The position numbers and the translations under genes were made by a program. A stretch of DNA of 64,000 nucleotides from the NCBI GenBank assembly GCA_964106915.2, contig OZ066925.1. One strand, 5' to 3'. The stretch comes from Podarcis gaigeae. Taxonomy: Eukaryota. The notes beneath the pieces are model-generated. The model made no database searches. It had not been told where the DNA came from and was given only the letters and a program-made list of their open reading frames with translations. This document shows positions 42,390 through 54,069 of this stretch, piece by piece; the first letter of the stretch is position 1, and every line of letters begins with the position of its first letter.

Positions 42390-42541
42390 CAGTCGTACCT
42401 TGGAAGCCGAACGCCTTGGCTCCCGAACAAATTGGCTCCTGAACACCCTGTCACGGGGATTCGAACCGCTGACCATTCAATTGGCAAGCCCAAGCAGCAC
42501 AGTGGTTTAACCCACAGCGTCACCCATATCCCTAACCACTG
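42390..42541. mobile_element. Composite: MITE left end + inverted Sauria SINE head (42446-42532) + TIR remnant
   Basis: TA|CAGTCGTACCT... (same family as 56487), then reverse SINE head, then ACCACTG|TA. Confidence 0.6.
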
Positions 42542-42599
42542 TATTAGCAACACATTTAACATTAAAACAATAAATTAAAGTTCAGTACTGCCCCTATTT

Positions 42600-42934
42600 G
42601 GGACGCGGGTGGCGCTGTGGGTAAAACCTCAGCGCCTAGGACTTGCCAATCGCATGGTCAGCAGTTCGAATCCCCGCGGCGGGGTGCGTTCCCGTTGTTC
42701 GGTCCCAGCGCCTGCCAATCTAGCAGCTCGAAAGCACCCCTGGGTGCAAGTAGATAAATAGGGACCACTTACCAGCGGGAAGGTAAACGGCGTTCCGTGT
42801 GCTGCGCTGGCCACGTAACCCGGAAGTGTCTGTGGACAGCACTAGCTCCCGGCCTATAGAGTGAGATGAGCGCACAACCCTAGAGTCTGGCAAGACTGGC
42901 CCGTACGGGCAGGGGTACCTTTACCTTTTACCTT
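42600..42934 (+). mobile_element. Sauria SINE (subfamily B type, internal deletion)
   Basis: 13-bp TSD TACTGCCCCTATT at 42586-42598 and 42935-42947. Confidence 0.95.
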
Positions 42935-43988
42935 TACTGCCCCTATTGCAGTCCCCCCCCCCAAAAAATGTGACCATGTTGAAACCATGGATGTTACTCC
43001 ACCCATCACCTTGAGTATTTTGTCACTTGATACCTACAACTCCTTCCACTTATAATGTTTCTTTTATCACTGGAAAGTTGTTCCAGTCAGTGGATTTGTC
43101 ACTGGAACTATTCCCACCTCACCTATGTTTGTGAAGTGGCTACATCTAATGCACACAAGCAGGTGGACACTTCCCCTTTGACTCAGGGCTCTCCTTTGCA
43201 CACTTAAATGCCACAACACCTGACCCAACCCAACAGTTGCGTAATGGTGGTGCCAGGAACTGCTGCTACTCCTGTTCATGCTTCCTCTTTGCAGCAACCA
43301 TCCCATTGGCATTCCTAGTGCTGCACATGCCTTCTCAAGACCTATGAACCTCAGGGCTTGCATGACCAAGAAGCATGTCTCTGTCATCTTGGCACTGGGA
43401 CTATTACTCCCTGCTCTATTAATTTCTGTGTTGAAACAAGTCTACATCTTTGTTGCCAGGGCAACAGGGCAGAAGTCTTCTGTTGCGGCTTTGATGCCCA
43501 TTCAACCAACTGAGTCACTCTGTTCTGCTGCAGTGGTTGTTGCCACACTTCAGAAAGGTGTGTGTGTGTATGAAGGGAGAGAGGGCTAGGAATTATGAAA
43601 GCCCCTGAATTAATATAGCTCAGTGTTATTCAGTCAGGTTTTAATGTTCTTTGGTTAACTTTCAGTTAAGTTACAAAATTGCAGCAATTCGTTTTTCACC
43701 ATTAATGTTTAACAAAAGACTGCCGGTAAGAAATAAATGATTATGAAGAAGGTGCAAATACTTCAGGAGACGCTCATAATAGTAGCTCAGGCATTGTATG
43801 TTATGAAAAGGGGCTGCAACTGAAGTATAATATTTCGGGCCAGAGTTAGCATTTCAGCATATACATTAATTAGGAGGAAAACCGGTGTACAGTGGTACCT
43901 CGGGTTAAGTACTTAATTCGTTCCAGAGGTCCGTTCTTAACCTGAAACTGTTCTTAACCTGAAGCACCACTTTAGCTAATGGGGCCTC

Positions 43989-44303
43989 TGTTGGGATTCG
44001 CAGGATACTGGATAAGTCTGCAGGCTTCAACAGGATGATGCAATACTCTGCTGGGTCAGAGTGACTCAACAGGAGTGTGATTTGTGTGATTGGCTATCAC
44101 CTGTTTTAAAAGGAAAGCCTGTTTAACAGTGGGTGTGGTGGTTGTGCTGTAGTGTGGTGGTGGAGAGTATTCGTTTGTAAGTACTCTGTATGGACTGTTT
44201 CTTTTGTAAATGCCTGTATCTAGCTCACATTAAAAAAGACTGCACTGGAAAAACCTGGAACTCTTAGCGTCTCTGCTAAAAGCGCCACGTGGAATACGCG
44301 ACA
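43989..44303 (+). repeat. 5' LTR (315 bp)
   Basis: TGTTGGGATTCG...TACGCGACA; contains TGACTCA (44062-44068), ATTGG (44089-44093), TTTTAAAA (44104-44111), ATTAAA (44229-44234). Confidence 0.96.
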
Positions 44304-44333
44304 GGGTTATGGGCCCAGCACGCTTCCACTGCG
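44304..44333 (+). promoter_or_regulatory. Primer-binding site complementary to the 5' half (nt ~11-40) of initiator tRNA-Met
   Basis: GGGTTATGGGCCCAGCACGCTTCCACTGCG immediately after the LTR; 29/30 match to the reverse complement of recalled vertebrate tRNA-iMet (...CGCAGCGGAAGCGTGCTGGGCCCATAACCC). Confidence 0.92.
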
Positions 44334-44387
44334 TAAGAGTACAGGTGGCAGTTATCTAGCCGTGGGTGCTGGAGGTGAGCTGCAGGG

Positions 44388-47300
44388 ATGGAGCAGTCCA
44401 GAACTGGCGTGTTGCTGGAGAAGCTGACAGCCACGAACTACAGCATCTGGTCGGTCCGCATGCAACACTTCCTCAAGCGTGAGGGCCTGTGGAAGGTGGT
44501 GGAAGTGCCACCGCAGCCCCCTGAGGAGGATGAAAAGGATGAGAAAGTTTTGGCTACGATCATCCTTGGAGTGGACGACAGCCAGCTAGTCTACGTAGCT
44601 GATAAGGTGACGGCAAGTGAGGCGTGGAATGCACTCAAGGCTGTCCATGTGCGAGAGACAGCTGGCTCACTGATTACACTGACCAGGAGACTGTACCGGT
44701 GTCGGAAGAAACCAGGGGACTCCCTGGTGAACCACCTAAAATTCCTAACAGGCTGTTTCCAGGAGCTAGCCTTAAGAGGGAAGCCTGTGGGGGAAGAGGA
44801 CAAAGTCTTTATAGTCCTGAGTTCCCTTGATGACAGCTATGATATGCCGGTCAATTCCCTCGAGTCTGTAGAGACTGATAAGCTGACTCTGGAATACGTT
44901 ACTGGACGGTTGTATGTGGAGGAGGACAGGCGTGCAGAGCGAAAGATGACCTCAGCCCAGCTGTTGGAGCATCCCAGAGGGAATAACAGCCGGGAAGAGC
45001 CGGAGAAACAGCCAGGAGGAGCTGCTGCAGACCAGCCGGTGGTCAACAAAGTAAAAAGGTGTTTTTGCTGGAAGTCCAGTGGACATCTGCTTCGGGACTG
45101 CCCAAGAAAACAACAAAAACAGCAGAAGCACAGGAGGCAGCAGAGAGAGTCTACCGCTTGGGTGTCTGCAGATGGTCAAGAAAAGGAAGAGCTGTGGGTT
45201 CTGGACAGTGGAGCTTCTCAAACCTTTTGTAAAAGAAAAGCATTGCTAACTGATGCTAGGGCTTCAAACAAAAAACATGTAAGTTTTGCCACGGGCCAGA
45301 AAGCTAATGTGGTTTGTGAGGGGGAGGTTGTGTTCCCACAGCTAGGACACACATTCAGGAATGTGTTGTGTGTGCCTAGTTTGCAAAACAATCTCCTGAG
45401 CATTCCTGACTTGGCAAAAGCAGGCTTTGAAGTAAACTTTGTGGGAGAGCAGTGCCAGATAAAGCAAAATGGGGCAGTGTTGGCAAATGCTAACCTTAGA
45501 ACTAATATGTATGTACTGCAGTGTGAGTCTAAGGTTGCGAATGTGCAAAATGTCCCAACCCATGATATGTGTATTCATCTCCTGCACAGGCGTCTGGCTC
45601 ATGCTAGCTATAAGGTGCTAAACAAAACATTGGAGTTGTGTGGGGGGATGAAAAACATAAAAAGTTGTGATAATTACTTAGACTGCAATATCTGCAAGGA
45701 GGTTAAAAGCAGGGCTTGCCCAGTAGCAAGAGCAAGCCAGAGAGAAACCAAAAAACCACTGGAGTTGATTCATGCTGATGTAACTGGTCCTTTTCTACCA
45801 AGTGTCTCCCATAACAAGTACTGTTTGATCCTAGTGGATGACTATTCTAGATTTGGCTGGGTCTATCCATTAAAGCAAAAGTCTGACGTTGCCCAAACTT
45901 TGAAGTTCTGGGTAAGAAGGGTAGAAAGGCAACTTGGCGAAAAGGTGTGCTCTATTCAGACAGACAGGGGAGGAGAGTTTATGGCAAGCTCCCTAAGAAA
46001 CTGGTTGCGTTCCCAAGGGATTAAACATAGGCTTACCAATGTGGCGACGCCTCAGGAGAATGGAGTAGCAGAGTGTAGGGGAGGTGTCTTGCAGACACAA
46101 ATGAAAGCATTGTTAGCAGATGCAAATCTCCCAATTAAGTACTGGGCTGAGAGTATTAAGACCGCGAATTATATTGGGAATCGCTTGTGGTCAAGGGTAC
46201 TAGATGACATACCCTATAAAATTCTCTATAACAAAAGTCCCAGTTTGCAACATTTGAGAATCTTTGGGACAAAGGCGTGGGTTGACATACCTGTAAAGAA
46301 CCGAAGAAAAGGTGGGAAAAGGGCACAGCAGTTGCTATTTCTTGGGTATGAAAGTGGTACCAAAGCCTACAGGTTTGAAGATGATAAAAATCTTTTGAGT
46401 TATAGTCGATTAGCCAGCTTTAATGAGCAAAGAAATTGGCCCAAGATACATGTAAACCTGCTGCCAGAAAAAGTTTTACTGCCGAGCGTACCTGATAAGG
46501 CAGTTGAAACAAAGCTAAGAATTGGCAGCTCTCCCAGGGAAGCTGAAAGGGAGGAGGTAAAGGTTGAGCATTTTTCTCCAGCTGCTAGCATGGAGCAGGG
46601 GAGAGAAGAAAGTGCAAAAGGGACAGAAGGAGGTAGATCTACAGAGTCAATCCACCCCCAAAGCAGTCCTGAAGGTAGCCCAGGGGGTGAGATTAATGAA
46701 CCAAGGAGGTCTTCAAGAAGTAATAAAGGTCAGCCTCCAGACCGTTATGGGTTCCCAGCCACCATAAACCAGGTTTGTGTAACTGAGCCAGAAAACTTTG
46801 AAGAAGTGCAAGAGTTACCTACTCTAGAGAAAGAGGCGTGGTTAAAGGCAATGCAGGCAGAGTATAAATCTCTGCTAAACAACAATGTCTTTGTACCTAC
46901 AGAATTGCCTGAAGGTAAAAAGCCCATAAGCTGTAAATGGGTTTTTAAAGTGAAAAAGCTGGCTGATGGTAGTTGTCAGAGGAAAGCCAGGTTGGTTGCA
47001 AGGGGCTTTACACAAAGGAAAATGATACATTATGATGAAGTGTTTGCCCCAACAGCAAAGGCTGAAACAGTAAAATCAGTTTTAGCAATGGCAAGTCTGA
47101 GGGGGTTAAAAGTTAATCATTTTGATGTTGCCTCAGCATATTTAAATGCTCCTATTGACGCCGAGATGTATTTACAGCAAATACCAGGTTATGAGCTGGA
47201 AAAAGACAGCATGGTGTTAAAGCTGCAAAGGGCACTATATGGTTTACACCAAAGTGCACGTCTATGGCATGAATGCATAGACACAACTTTGAAAAAGATG

Positions 47301-48322
47301 GGATTCAAACAAAGCCTGGCTGATTCCTGTTTATATTCAGCAATGGTGCAAGGAAGTGTTTGTTATTTACTTTTGTATGTTGACGATATCTGTCTAATAA
47401 CAACTGCACGAAAGCAAATGTCTTGGTTTATAAACAGCCTAGGTAACAAATACAAACTAAAGTATTTGGGAGAGATTCAGAATTACTTAGGAGTAGAGGT
47501 TCAGAGAAATGAAGAGGGCGTCTACTCTCTGAGTCAGAAGGAAAAAATCGAAAAGTTACTGAAGACATAAGGAATGGAGAGGGCAAATGAGGTTGACACT
47601 CCCATAACTACCCAGTACAAAAATGAACCAGAAGGGCAAAAATGTGAGAATGCAACAGCGTTTCATTCTCTGTTGGGTTCTCTGTTATATTTAAGTTGTT
47701 GGACAAGACCCGACATAACATTGGCAGTGCACATGTTAAGCCAAAGAAGTGCAGACCCGGCTCAGAGAGATTGGGTAGCACTTAAAAGAATCCTAAGGTA
47801 TCTGAAAGGCACAAAAGATTACAAACTGGTGCTGGATACAGGATATGATCAGCAAGTCTATGCATACTCTGATGCCAGCTGGGGGGACAGAGAAAATGGA
47901 AAGTCTACCACTGGCTATGCCATATATATTGGAAATGCCCTGGTTCAGTGGAAATCCCAGAAACAAACATTTGTTGCCACAAGTACTTGTGAAGCAGAGT
48001 ACTCAGCCATAAGCGAATGTGTATCACAAATAGAATGGTTTGCTTGCCTAACAAAAGAGCTTGGAATACCTTCTGAAATGCCAATCACTGTGCTAAGTGA
48101 CAACATGGCTGCACAACAGCTTGCCAACCAACAGAACTTTAAAAGCAAGAGTAAACAATTGCTATAAGATACGGAAATGTGAAAAATGTTTTGGAAAGAA
48201 ATGTGTTAAAGGTACAGCACTGTAACACAAAATGTAATGTGGCAGATTTGTATACAAAATGTTTGGATGCTCCTAAATTTCGAGACTTAAGAGAATTATT
48301 AGGTCTCAAGCCTTTGACTTAA
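44388..48322 (+). pseudogene. Copia gag-pol polyprotein with one premature stop and one frameshift
   Basis: Gag (NYSIW; knuckle CFCWKSSGHLLRDC), protease WVLDSGAS, integrase HRRLAH..CNIC and D-D-E (HADVTGP, TDRGGEF, NGVAE), RT (KARLVARGFTQ, LYGLHQS, YVDD), RNase H (YSDASW, EAEY, SDN). In-frame TAA at 47568-47570. Frameshift near 48157, after which another frame reads IAIRYGNVK...VADLYTKCL...* ending 48322. Confidence 0.93.
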
Positions 48323-48329
48323 GGAGGAG
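48321..48329 (+). promoter_or_regulatory. Polypurine tract
   Basis: AAGGAGGAG directly before the 3' LTR. Confidence 0.85.
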
Positions 48330-48652
48330 TGTTGGGATTCGCAGGATACTGGATAAGTCTGCAGGCTTCAACAGGATGATGCAATACTCTGCTGGGTCAG
48401 AGTGACTCAACAGGAGTGTGATTAGTGTGATTGGCTATCACCTGTTTTAAAAGGAAAGCCTGTTTAACAGTGGGTGTGGTGGTTGTACTGTAGTGTGGTG
48501 GTGCTTTGGTGGAGAGTATTCGTTTGTAAGTACTCTGTATGGACTGTTTCTTTTGTAAATGCCTGTATCTAGCTCACATTAAAAAAGACTGCACTAGAAA
48601 AACCTGGAACTCTTAGCGTCTCCGCTGAAAGCGCCGCGTGGAATACGCGACA
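48330..48652 (+). repeat. 3' LTR (323 bp)
   Basis: Differs from the 5' LTR by 6 substitutions and one 8-bp indel (manual comparison). Confidence 0.96.
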
Positions 48653-49069
48653 GCCTCCTGCTGCTGCTGCTGCTGCCGCGCCGCCGGAGCACGATTTCTG
48701 TTCTCATCCTGAAGCAAAGTTCTTAACCCAAGGTACTATTTCTGGGTAATCGGAGTCTGTAACCTGAAGTGTATGTAACCTGAGGTACCACTGTAGTTGA
48801 AAAAAATCATTTAGTAATGTTCCTTTGTCTGCTTTTTTTTTAAAAAAAGTAGAATGCACTGTTACTTCAGAAAACAGACTCCACCCAAAGTGGTTATTTT
48901 TTCTGTGCCTTGTTTCATTGTTGGTTTTTAGCACGTGTAGCGAGAAAGAGAGAGAGAGAGACTGTATCTGTATCTGTATACTGTATATATGAGTGAGAGA
49001 ACAGGTTTGTTATAAGAAAAGTTAACATGAGATTAAAACTGCAAAAATTGTGGATTTATTTTCGCACTT

Positions 49070-49546
49070 TGTCAGGGACTCGAAGGACAGTGATGGGTGT
49101 GCACCAGGAGAAGAGGGGATGGAGTCAGACTCAGGAGAGCGGGGCAGTGATTTGTGGGGAACTGTACCGATCAGGAGACAAGAGTTGGAGGCAGGGGAAA
49201 CTTCAGAGATGGAAGGTGGAGCACAGGATGGGTTGGAAGAAAAGGAGGAAGAGGCAAGTCAGGCAAGTGAGGGGACGATGCTTGCCCACCCTCTTCTGCA
49301 CCACTGTCCCAGAACGAACAGGCTGAAAAGGGCTGAATAGGCTCAGTCTTCAGCTATGTGTGCACAGTCTATTGTAGGAAGGTACATAAAAGTGGTAGAA
49401 GGGGAGTGGTCCCCTGTTGCTGCAACTGCTCCCTAGAGCACAGCCGTGTACAAATATCCAGAGCTGCAGAAAGGGCTGTAAGTGCTATCTTGGACAATAA
49501 AGAGTTAACTATTTGCCATTCCTTTGACTGGGGCGTGCTCTTGACA
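49070..49546 (+). mobile_element. Solo LTR (477 bp), unrelated to the Copia LTR; possibly Gypsy-type
   Basis: TGTCAGGG...CTCTTGACA termini, 5-bp TSD CACTT (49065-49069, 49547-49551), AATAAA near 49496. Confidence 0.85.
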
Positions 49547-53185: not shown

Positions 53186-53737
53186 AATTTCTCAAATGTC
53201 CAACTGAATCAGTGTTGGCGGCCCTAGGATGTAAATACATAAAAACAATTAGGAAATAGCTTTGTTCAGGCTTTCTCACGCAGGTACAATCAGCAGCAGT
53301 TGTCATTCTTTCGCAAGAAGTCACACAAGCAGACCTAACTTGTTTTTATTTAGTTTCACTTCTTCCTAATACGTTCTAGCACATGTTGCAAAATAGCACT
53401 TTTATGAGTAGTTCCATTCAGTTATATCGTGCATTAGGTTGCTCAGAACTATTCACATATGTTATTTTGTTCGTAATCCAGAAGAACCCTGGAAAGTAGG
53501 TCAGCAGATGGGGAATCTGAGACAATACATGATTGCTTGCCTACATGGTGAGTTCATGTCAGAGGTAATCTTTGACTGGATATATCTTTATTCATTACTC
53601 AATCACTTACTCACTATGCAGCACCCAACTTGCAAGACACAGGGGTGTTCATAGTTGAAGTCAGATTTCTAGTTCCAGCCCTTGATCTTCAGTCCACCCA
53701 CTACCCCCAAAAAAATGTTTACATTCTAGTACAGTTT

Positions 53738-54069
53738 GGGATGTGGGTGGCGCTGTGGTCTAAACCACAGAGCCTAGGGCTTCCCGATCAGAAGGTTGGC
53801 GGTTCGAATCCCCACGACGGGGTGAGCTCCTGTTGCTCAGTCCCAGCTGCTGCCAACCTAGCAGTTTGAAAGCATATTGAAGTGCAAGTAGATAAATAGA
53901 TACCGCTCCAGCAGGAAGGTAAACAGCGTTTCTGTGCGCTGCTTAGTCATGCTGGCCACATGACCCGGAAGCTGTATGCCGGCTCCCTTGGCCAGTAAAG
54001 CGAGATGAGCGCTGCAACCCCAGAGTCTTTCGTGACTGGACCTAACAGTCAGGGATCCCTTTACCTTTT
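53738..54069 (+). mobile_element. Sauria SINE (subfamily A type)
   Basis: Head, body and tail present; flanking direct repeat TACAGTTT. Confidence 0.92.

What the first reader, a model, noticed from the sequence alone, without database searches (positions are those of the whole stretch)
44304..44333. Vertebrate Copia element primed by a tRNA half: unusually long (30-nt) PBS matching the 5' half of initiator tRNA-Met
Seen: directly after the 5' LTR there is no TGG (anti-CCA) PBS. The sequence reads GGGTTATGGGCCCAGCACGCTTCCACTGCG. Established: this is the reverse complement of the D-arm/anticodon arm of tRNA-iMet. Priming from a cleaved 5' half of tRNA-iMet defines the Hemivirus group of Pseudoviridae (Drosophila copia, yeast Ty5). 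As I recall it, the copia match is only ~14-15 nt (GGTTATGGGCCCAG). Here complementarity runs 30 nt with 1 mismatch, across G26 and the D-loop, and ends at nt 11, next to the methylated G9/G10. Inference: the element needs a tRNA-iMet fragment cut on the 3' side of the anticodon stem (nt ~39-40), not an anticodon-loop angiogenin-type half. The PBS length may record where RT stalls on tRNA modifications, as m1A58 sets 18-nt retroviral PBSs. The single mismatch (A at 44328) would pair with U16, which I recall in insect tRNA-iMet. That could hint at an invertebrate source, but CpG deamination (CG>CA) explains it equally well.
Basis: partly seen in the sequence, partly recalled or inferred. Interest (0 to 1): 0.85.

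Follow-up and report, generated by a model that had tools for sequence, protein, structure and literature searches.

The report
Lizard retrotransposon primed by half tRNA
A lizard Copia retrotransposon family carries a 30-base primer site matching the front half of the host's initiator tRNA, about twice the usual length and ending beside a base that is likely methylated, and its terminal repeat, like those of many related families, holds a short second match predicted to refold the tRNA so that it can be cut into that primer, which makes the old question of how such primers are made testable.

Summary
Confirmed. 44305-44334 is the PBS of a full Copia element (43989-48652), complementary to host tRNA-iMet nt 39 to 10. 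G at 44328 in 55 of 60 copies removes the invertebrate hint. G44304 is probably a spacer, so priming starts at the classic copia/Ty5 site. The match stops at G9 (m1G in human). Of 20 other sampled loci, 18 have 14-15 nt, so the long form is family-specific. It is most likely a fixed plus-strand read-through into the primer: 15 single-LTR inserts copy the tRNA up to nt 1, and in a CCA-primed Copia group read-through overwrote the leader of a whole element. Beyond the finding: a box complementary to tRNA nt 1-8 lies upstream in 9 of 20 LTR clusters (shuffles 1.05; CCA-primed loci 0 of 20). Blocking nt 1-8 in silico flips the tRNA into a stem starting at nt 40 (P 0.94, against 0.02-0.19 for PBS alone), the RNase P hyperprocessing fold. 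Tracts of the CCA-primed group end exactly at nt 40. Half-tRNA priming is known; the scan noted 14-15-nt cases in other genomes. No cleavage or pairing is shown experimentally.

The parts
43984..43988 (+). 5-bp target-site duplication, left
   Evidence: same 5-mer at 48653-48657
43989..44303 (+). 5' LTR (TG...CA, 315 nt)
   Evidence: 6 substitutions and one 8-nt indel against the 3' LTR
44045..44052 (+). 8-nt complement of tRNA-iMet nt 1-8, in putative U3
   Evidence: present in 33 of 60 copies (some LTRs truncated)
44229..44234 (+). putative poly(A) signal
   Evidence: sequence; function inferred
44271..44277 (+). U5 box complementary to tRNA-iMet nt 1-7 (predicted second primer contact)
   Evidence: 7-mer in 26 of 60 copies, nt 1-6 complement in 47 of 60
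44304..44304 (+). probable 1-nt spacer (also complementary to nt 40)
   Evidence: G in 3 of 18 representative loci
44305..44334 (+). 30-nt PBS, complement of tRNA-iMet nt 39 to 10 (core 44305-44318, extension 44319-44334); this copy differs at 44328 and 44334
44379..47570 (+). gag-PR-IN-RT open frame (1063 aa) ending in an in-frame stop
   Evidence: PF13961, PF14223, PF22936, PF13976, PF00665, PF25597, PF07727
47571..48167 (+). continuation of pol in the same frame (RT end / RNase H-like by eye); no Pfam hit
48321..48329 (+). polypurine tract
   Evidence: sequence directly before the 3' LTR
48330..48652 (+). 3' LTR
48653..48657 (+). 5-bp target-site duplication, right

Best explanation
This is the primer site of a multi-copy lizard Copia family; it matches nt 39 to 10 of host tRNA-iMet, and the element likely primes from the 5' 39-nt tRNA half, with the extra 16 bases likely a fixed relic of reverse transcriptase copying the primer until stopped at a likely methylated G9. 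Steps. (1) Shown in sequence: the PBS starts at the partner of nt 39 after a short spacer, as in the other sampled families. (2) Inferred: a U5 box pairs with tRNA nt 1-7/8 and opens the acceptor stem; nt 40-45 then pair with nt 64-69, giving a pre-tRNA-like fold whose junction lies at 39/40, cut by RNase P or a similar nuclease. (3) Inferred: during plus-strand strong-stop synthesis RT sometimes runs past the usual 14-nt PBS into the primer and stalls at G9 or runs off at nt 1. One such product became the ancestor of this family; its PBS is since passed on mainly from the template and may also aid annealing.
For: Family-wide match ends at nt 10: nt 10 matched in 58 of 60, nt 9 in 2 of 60, nt 7 in 0 of 60. 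m1G9 full and RT-blocking in human tRNA-iMet. 18 of 20 other loci match 14-15 nt. 16 single-LTR loci (15 events) carry tRNA-half read-through; 5 run to nt 1 and none continues into a genomic leader; 2 have a 5-bp TSD. In CCA-primed Copia, L147 vs L148 and L142 vs L150 show tRNA sequence replacing the leader; L147 has identical LTRs and a TSD. Box: 9 of 20 clusters vs shuffles mean 1.05 (max 4 in 300), reverse strand 0, background 3.6%; 6 of 14 out-of-sample clusters, p=5e-6; 0 of 20 CCA-primed loci. Fold switch P 0.90-0.94 with nt 1-8 or 1-6 blocked vs 0.02-0.19 with the PBS alone, the rearrangement described for hyperprocessing (PMC2794163 passage). 9 of 20 CCA-primed loci match the tRNA 3' part to exactly nt 40, none to nt 39.
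Against: No RNA evidence of the half, the cut or the pairing. 11 of 20 cluster representatives lack the 7-mer box, and at cluster level the CCA control is not significant (9/20 vs 0/5, p=0.12); only 10 of 20 representatives were confirmed as Copia by tblastn. The fold ignores modifications and used hard constraints. The nt-40 boundary is confounded: the same hexamer is also complementary to the CCA-type PBS itself, so hairpins or jumps could end there. The PBS extension is not measurably more conserved than the nearby leader (1.2% vs 1.7%). Modification state in lizard is assumed from human. The read-through inserts end at many places (nt 17 to 1), not only at G9. One search listed no G at 44328 in other organisms' contigs (inconclusive: human-like contigs are filtered out).
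Confidence: 0.58

Rival explanations
1. The 30-nt PBS is kept by selection for long primer pairing up to the unpairable m1G9, like the extensive PBS of Candida Tca2, whatever its origin.
For: 0 of 10 non-CpG extension columns carry a variant shared by 5 or more copies, vs 9 of 52 in U5 and 12 of 154 in gag. Two other families have degenerate long matches with some G.U-compatible changes (L109/L131, L120), and they are not grouped with this family to the exclusion of 14-nt L114. Predicted duplex far more stable. Review passage on extensive vs short PBS in Candida (PMC4139406).
Against: The nearby leader is equally quiet (1 of 51). The most abundant family in the listing has a 14-nt PBS. The test has little power.
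Confidence: 0.3
2. The PBS is rewritten from the tRNA in every cycle, as in retroviruses, with m1G9 playing the role of m1A58.
For: Two unrelated copies (L090, L091) carry the allele of the host's second iMet isodecoder. Read-through demonstrably happens.
Against: 38 of 167 other T columns also show two or more T>C, so two hits are not significant (background inflated by truncated LTRs). L109 and L131, with identical RT, share most departures from the tRNA. L077 and L092 are sisters at different sites sharing a change at nt 9. Ty1 and Ty3 inherit the PBS from the template (PMC7472051 passage).
Confidence: 0.15
3. The primer is cut by another route (for example a host stress nuclease plus trimming, or nicking after annealing by an element enzyme), and the upstream box has another role such as a poly(A)-linked U5 motif or RNA circularisation.
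For: The box often lies just downstream of AATAAA; its position varies from -30 to -170; no enzyme evidence exists.
Against: The box is absent from 20 of 20 CCA-primed Copia loci that also have AATAAA. It is the top-ranked 7-mer and matches the tRNA 5' end. At least 2 events (3 loci: L003, L086, L087) jump from the tRNA copy onto it.
Confidence: 0.35
4. The element came recently from an invertebrate and the A at 44328 pairs with an insect U16.
For: Only the single base in this copy, shared by 5 of 60 copies.
Against: CpG column; 55 of 60 match the host tRNA. Podarcis homologues at 78-84%; nothing above 47% among the listed RT hits.
Confidence: 0.03

Closest known systems
Drosophila copia and yeast Ty5 (Pseudoviridae, genus Hemivirus; also Osser, 1731)
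   Same: PBS complementary to the anticodon arm of tRNA-iMet, first primer base Sprinzl nt 40 (PMC1181622 passage); Copia domain order.
   Different: Vertebrate host; contiguous match of 30 nt against 8-18 nt for retrotransposons in general (PMC7773854 passage); upstream box for nt 1-8, which I did not find described in the searches made (the primary copia and Ty5 papers were not held).
Candida albicans Tca2 (gamma LTR)
   Same: Extensive homology to an internal tRNA region, with short-PBS relatives in the same genome (PMC4139406 passage).
   Different: tRNA-Arg(UCU), fungal; the figure was not seen, so length and contiguity were not compared.
Bipartite PBS of Ty1 and Ty3
   Same: Second tRNA-complementary segment away from the PBS (PMC5371799 passage).
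   Different: Those use full-length tRNA primed at CCA and pair with the T and D arms; here the box matches the 5' acceptor strand and is predicted to trigger refolding for cleavage.
RNase P hyperprocessing of tRNA-iMet (Kikuchi)
   Same: Same alternative pairing of the acceptor 3' strand with the anticodon-stem 3' strand and variable loop (PMC2794163 passage; the 1990 paper seen as a reference title only).
   Different: There a weakly populated conformer in vitro; here the element RNA would act as the guide that populates it.
Retroviral 18-nt PBS bounded by m1A58
   Same: PBS end beside a base-pair-blocking methylation (m1A58 boundary recalled; primer inheritance in PMC7472051).
   Different: Per-cycle inheritance from the primer is not shown here.

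Membership tests
Ty1/Copia (Pseudoviridae) | Two LTRs TG...CA, TSD, PBS, PPT | tested here: met
Ty1/Copia (Pseudoviridae) | Domain order gag-PR-IN-RT with RVT_2 | tested here: met
   Pfam; the RNase H segment gave no Pfam hit
Hemivirus (half-tRNA primed) | PBS complementary to the anticodon stem-loop of tRNA-iMet, starting at Sprinzl nt 40 | tested here: met
Hemivirus (half-tRNA primed) | Cleaved tRNA physically primes minus-strand DNA | not testable with these tools
   only indirect genomic traces
Hemivirus (half-tRNA primed) | RT groups with copia, Ty5, 1731 | not tested
   no named reference RTs were in my trees
Hemivirus (half-tRNA primed) | No env-like third ORF | tested here: met
   no further + strand ORF of 100 aa or more between pol and the 3' LTR
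Bipartite-PBS elements (Ty1/Ty3 type) | Second tRNA-complementary box, conserved across families | tested here: met
Bipartite-PBS elements (Ty1/Ty3 type) | Box pairs with the primer and is needed for priming | not testable with these tools
   prediction only
Retrovirus-type PBS renewal | Primer alleles appear in progeny PBS in each cycle | tested here: inconclusive
   2 of 58 carry the isodecoder allele; 38 of 167 background columns do as much

The most novel reading that the evidence does not exclude
Lizard Copia RNA is a natural guide that makes its own primer: the U5 box and PBS bind tRNA-iMet, force the hyperprocessing fold and get it cut at 39/40; the 5' half primes the autonomous families, and an RT-less Copia offshoot in the same genome primes from the leftover 3' half (nt 40-CCA).
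Probability: 0.33. Interest if true: 0.87.

Novelty: new variant of a known kind. Interest (0 to 1): 0.62.

Why it matters
How half-tRNA primers are produced has, by my recollection, been open since the 1986 copia work; the RNase P proposal rests on in vitro cleavage of a rare conformer. A conserved cis box predicted to drive exactly that conformer gives a cheap, direct test with short RNAs. The genome also preserves a fossil record of the primer: its 3' end, its mature 5' end and RT stop sites. It implies a non-angiogenin 39-nt tRNA-iMet half in a vertebrate germline, a defined target for small-RNA sequencing.

Tried and rejected
Invertebrate origin from A44328: rejected. m1G9 misincorporation signature in inserts: 5 of 21 vs 2 of 147 over the three methylated sites (p=3e-4), but p=0.08 after removing jumps onto the LTR box, so not claimed (counts by hand). 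Excess mismatch at Sprinzl G26 (4 of 15 events, p=8e-4 at an assumed 3% background) is unexplained, because m2G is not normally RT-visible. Isodecoder inheritance: not significant. A shared PBS change in L070/L078/L079 proved to be segmental duplication. RT hits in L144 and L148 come from neighbouring elements and were ignored; those two branches do not place the CCA group. Four other TSD hits do not start at an LTR end and were treated as chance. One search listed no RNA holder; laid 27 mRNA reads with a gap over the PBS, which is no finding (human-like reads are filtered). Ke 1999, Matthews 1997, Lauermann 1994 and 1997 and Kikuchi 1990 were not held. Repbase and Dfam could not be searched. 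No structure or complex prediction was run.

Full report
Numbering: tRNA positions are gene positions 1-72 of the host tRNA-iMet gene in L062; Sprinzl numbers are one higher after nt 16 (recalled convention).

The element. The site follows the 5' LTR of a complete LTR element: LTRs 43989-44303 and 48330-48652, a 5-bp TSD, a PPT, and a 1063-aa frame ending in an in-frame stop at 47568-47570 and continuing for 198 aa. Pfam gives Copia gag, protease, integrase and RVT_2 in Copia order. The closest named proteins are from Podarcis lilfordi at 78-84%, so a lacertid host is inferred. Among the 120 listed RT hits none exceeds 47% (only 8000 candidates were scored).

The observation. 44304-44333 matches host tRNA-iMet with one mismatch; 0 of 100 shuffles match. 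The host has two isodecoders differing at nt 19. A search anchored on the downstream leader, blind to the PBS, gave 70 hits, 65 of this family by eye. After collapsing one identical pair and dropping 4 segmental duplicates, 60 copies were counted: 55 of 60 match the tRNA at 44328 (a CpG column), 58 of 60 at 44334 (nt 10), 2 of 60 at nt 9, 58 of 60 at nt 8, 0 of 60 at nt 7. The long PBS is thus a family trait ending at G10, and the invertebrate hint falls. Contigs spanning the site occur under three other organism labels; they show C at 44334 but list no G at 44328, which is inconclusive because human-like contigs are filtered out.

Where priming starts. The 14-nt core occurs 550 times in G000, the control pattern 0 times; the 23-nt form 64 times. 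Of 20 loci chosen for distinct flanks, 16 match 14 nt, 2 match 15, one 18 and one 24 (shorter sites were invisible to this search; 10 of 20 confirmed Copia by tblastn). The base opposite nt 40 is G in only 3 of 18 representatives, so the common start is nt 39 (Sprinzl 40), as stated for hemiviruses (PMC1181622, passages).

Why it ends at nt 10. Human tRNA-iMet carries m1G9 (virtually complete, an RT block), m2G10 and partial m2G26 (PMC7293042, passages); the lizard state is assumed. Read-through into the primer is recorded in this genome. 16 loci, counted as 15 events, have an LTR end or LTR-like end followed by 23-39 nt of tRNA complement and then unrelated or LTR sequence; for 3 of them no LTR homologue was among my full elements. 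Five run to nt 1 and none continues into a tRNA gene leader (by eye), which fits a mature 5' end. Others stop or jump at nt 17, about 11 (3), 8, 6 and 4, and 3 pass through the nt 10-9 region with mismatches. L003 and L084 have a 5-bp TSD. A wider search for full-length copies found no further inserts among 22 hits. That such a product can be fixed in a whole element is shown by a second Copia group primed at CCA (72 hits): L147 differs from L148, and L142 from L150, by tRNA sequence replacing the leader between an 18-nt PBS and a downstream box. Renewal in every cycle is not supported: the isodecoder allele is in 2 unrelated copies, but 38 of 167 T columns show as much. Selection on the extension could not be resolved (1.2% vs 1.7% in the leader).

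The upstream box. I first saw it in the insert loci and the window. Upstream 330-nt stretches fell into 20 clusters. In one representative each, a 7-mer complementary to nt 1-8 lies within 200 nt of the PBS in 9 of 20, against 1.05 in 300 shuffles (max 4), 0 on the reverse strand and 3.6% of window background; two of its hexamers tie with AATAAA at 11 of 20. In the 14 clusters represented by later-fetched loci it is 6 of 14 (p=5e-6; two of these clusters overlap the discovery set, and both representatives lack it). It is absent within 200 nt in 0 of 20 CCA-primed loci (3 of 20 within 330 nt); these form only 5 clusters, p=0.12. The window has it at 44271-44277 and 44045-44052.

Predicted mechanism. 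With nt 1-8 held unpaired the tRNA forms a stem of nt 40-45 with 64-69 on the T-arm at P 0.94; with a 14-nt PBS alone 0.02, a 30-nt PBS alone 0.19, and a 30-nt PBS plus nt 1-6 0.94 (unmodified RNA, hard constraints). This is the type of rearrangement reported for RNase P hyperprocessing (PMC2794163, passage), and its junction is 39/40. In the CCA-primed group 9 of 20 fetched loci (picked partly for long matches; two are near-duplicates) match to nt 40 and none to nt 39, and template boxes in divergent subfamilies end there too. This fits use of the 3' half, but the terminal hexamer also pairs with that group's own PBS, so the boundary is confounded. Two ORFs of that group have gag or protease and a weak integrase hit but no RT, and 9 placed members form one integrase clade among half-primed families.

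Literature. Half-tRNA priming is known for copia, Ty5, Osser, Bryco, Bianca and rust-fungus Copia (passages of PMC6317226, PMC10886601, PMC5371799, PMC10275265). Extensive and short internal PBSs coexist in Candida (PMC4139406, passages). Retrotransposon PBSs are given as 8-18 nt (PMC7773854, passage). Ty1 and Ty3 inherit the PBS from the template (PMC7472051, passage). PMC2359750 and PMC10869971 gave only reference titles. Searches (listings; passages only for the papers named) showed no report of a 30-nt iMet-half PBS, of a 5'-end box, or of these in squamates. The primary copia, Ty5, Tca2 and Ty1 papers were not held, no supplements were read, and Repbase was not searchable, so prior description is possible. 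Earlier scan notes list 14-15-nt half-tRNA sites in other genomes and nothing like this stretch.

Verdict. Half-tRNA priming about 0.93; end set by G9 about 0.7; fixed read-through origin about 0.55; box-guided refolding and cut about 0.4. New variant of a known kind; interest 0.62.

Noticed in passing
L141-L160 (e.g. L147:1166-3967): A Copia-derived group primed at the CCA end of tRNA-iMet, about 3 kb internal, with gag, protease and a degenerate integrase but no RT hit; 18-nt PBS plus a downstream box matching nt 47-40; several copies young (LTRs 98-100% identical). Must borrow RT.
   Followed up: partly
L161-L166 (U5 of solo LTRs and one element): Two related LTR families carry a sense copy of tRNA-iMet nt 39/40-55 in U5, possibly a captured 3' half; one family is half-primed.
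   Followed up: partly
L019:1501-1730: Single-LTR insert with 23 nt of 5'-half read-through, element-like internal sequence, then an inverted pair of tRNA 3' parts including the CCA tail, starting at nt 40 or 39.
   Followed up: partly
L167, L168: Further captures of the tRNA 3' part beginning at nt 40, one in an inverted duplication without an LTR, one right after a CCA-type PBS.
   Followed up: partly
L081, L083, L085, L089: Mismatch opposite Sprinzl G26 in 4 of 15 read-through events, although m2G should be RT-silent; may point to a different modification in lizard.
   Followed up: partly
L099, L100, L008 (G000 C2 tRNA cluster): Second tRNA-iMet isodecoder (nt 19 variant) in several genes of one cluster.
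   Followed up: partly
window 43889-43988 and 48653-48796: The element is inserted in a short element with inverted ends and TA flanks, resembling a Tc1/mariner MITE (by eye).
   Followed up: no
window 49072-49546: A second LTR-like stretch (TG...CA, AATAAA) that looks like a solo LTR of another family (by eye).
   Followed up: no
window 42444-42929 and 53735-54069: Dispersed SINE-like repeats in both orientations.
   Followed up: no
G000 C32: About a third of the family's copies lie on this 29.5-Mb contig, with segmental duplicates; possibly a repeat-rich sex chromosome.
   Followed up: no
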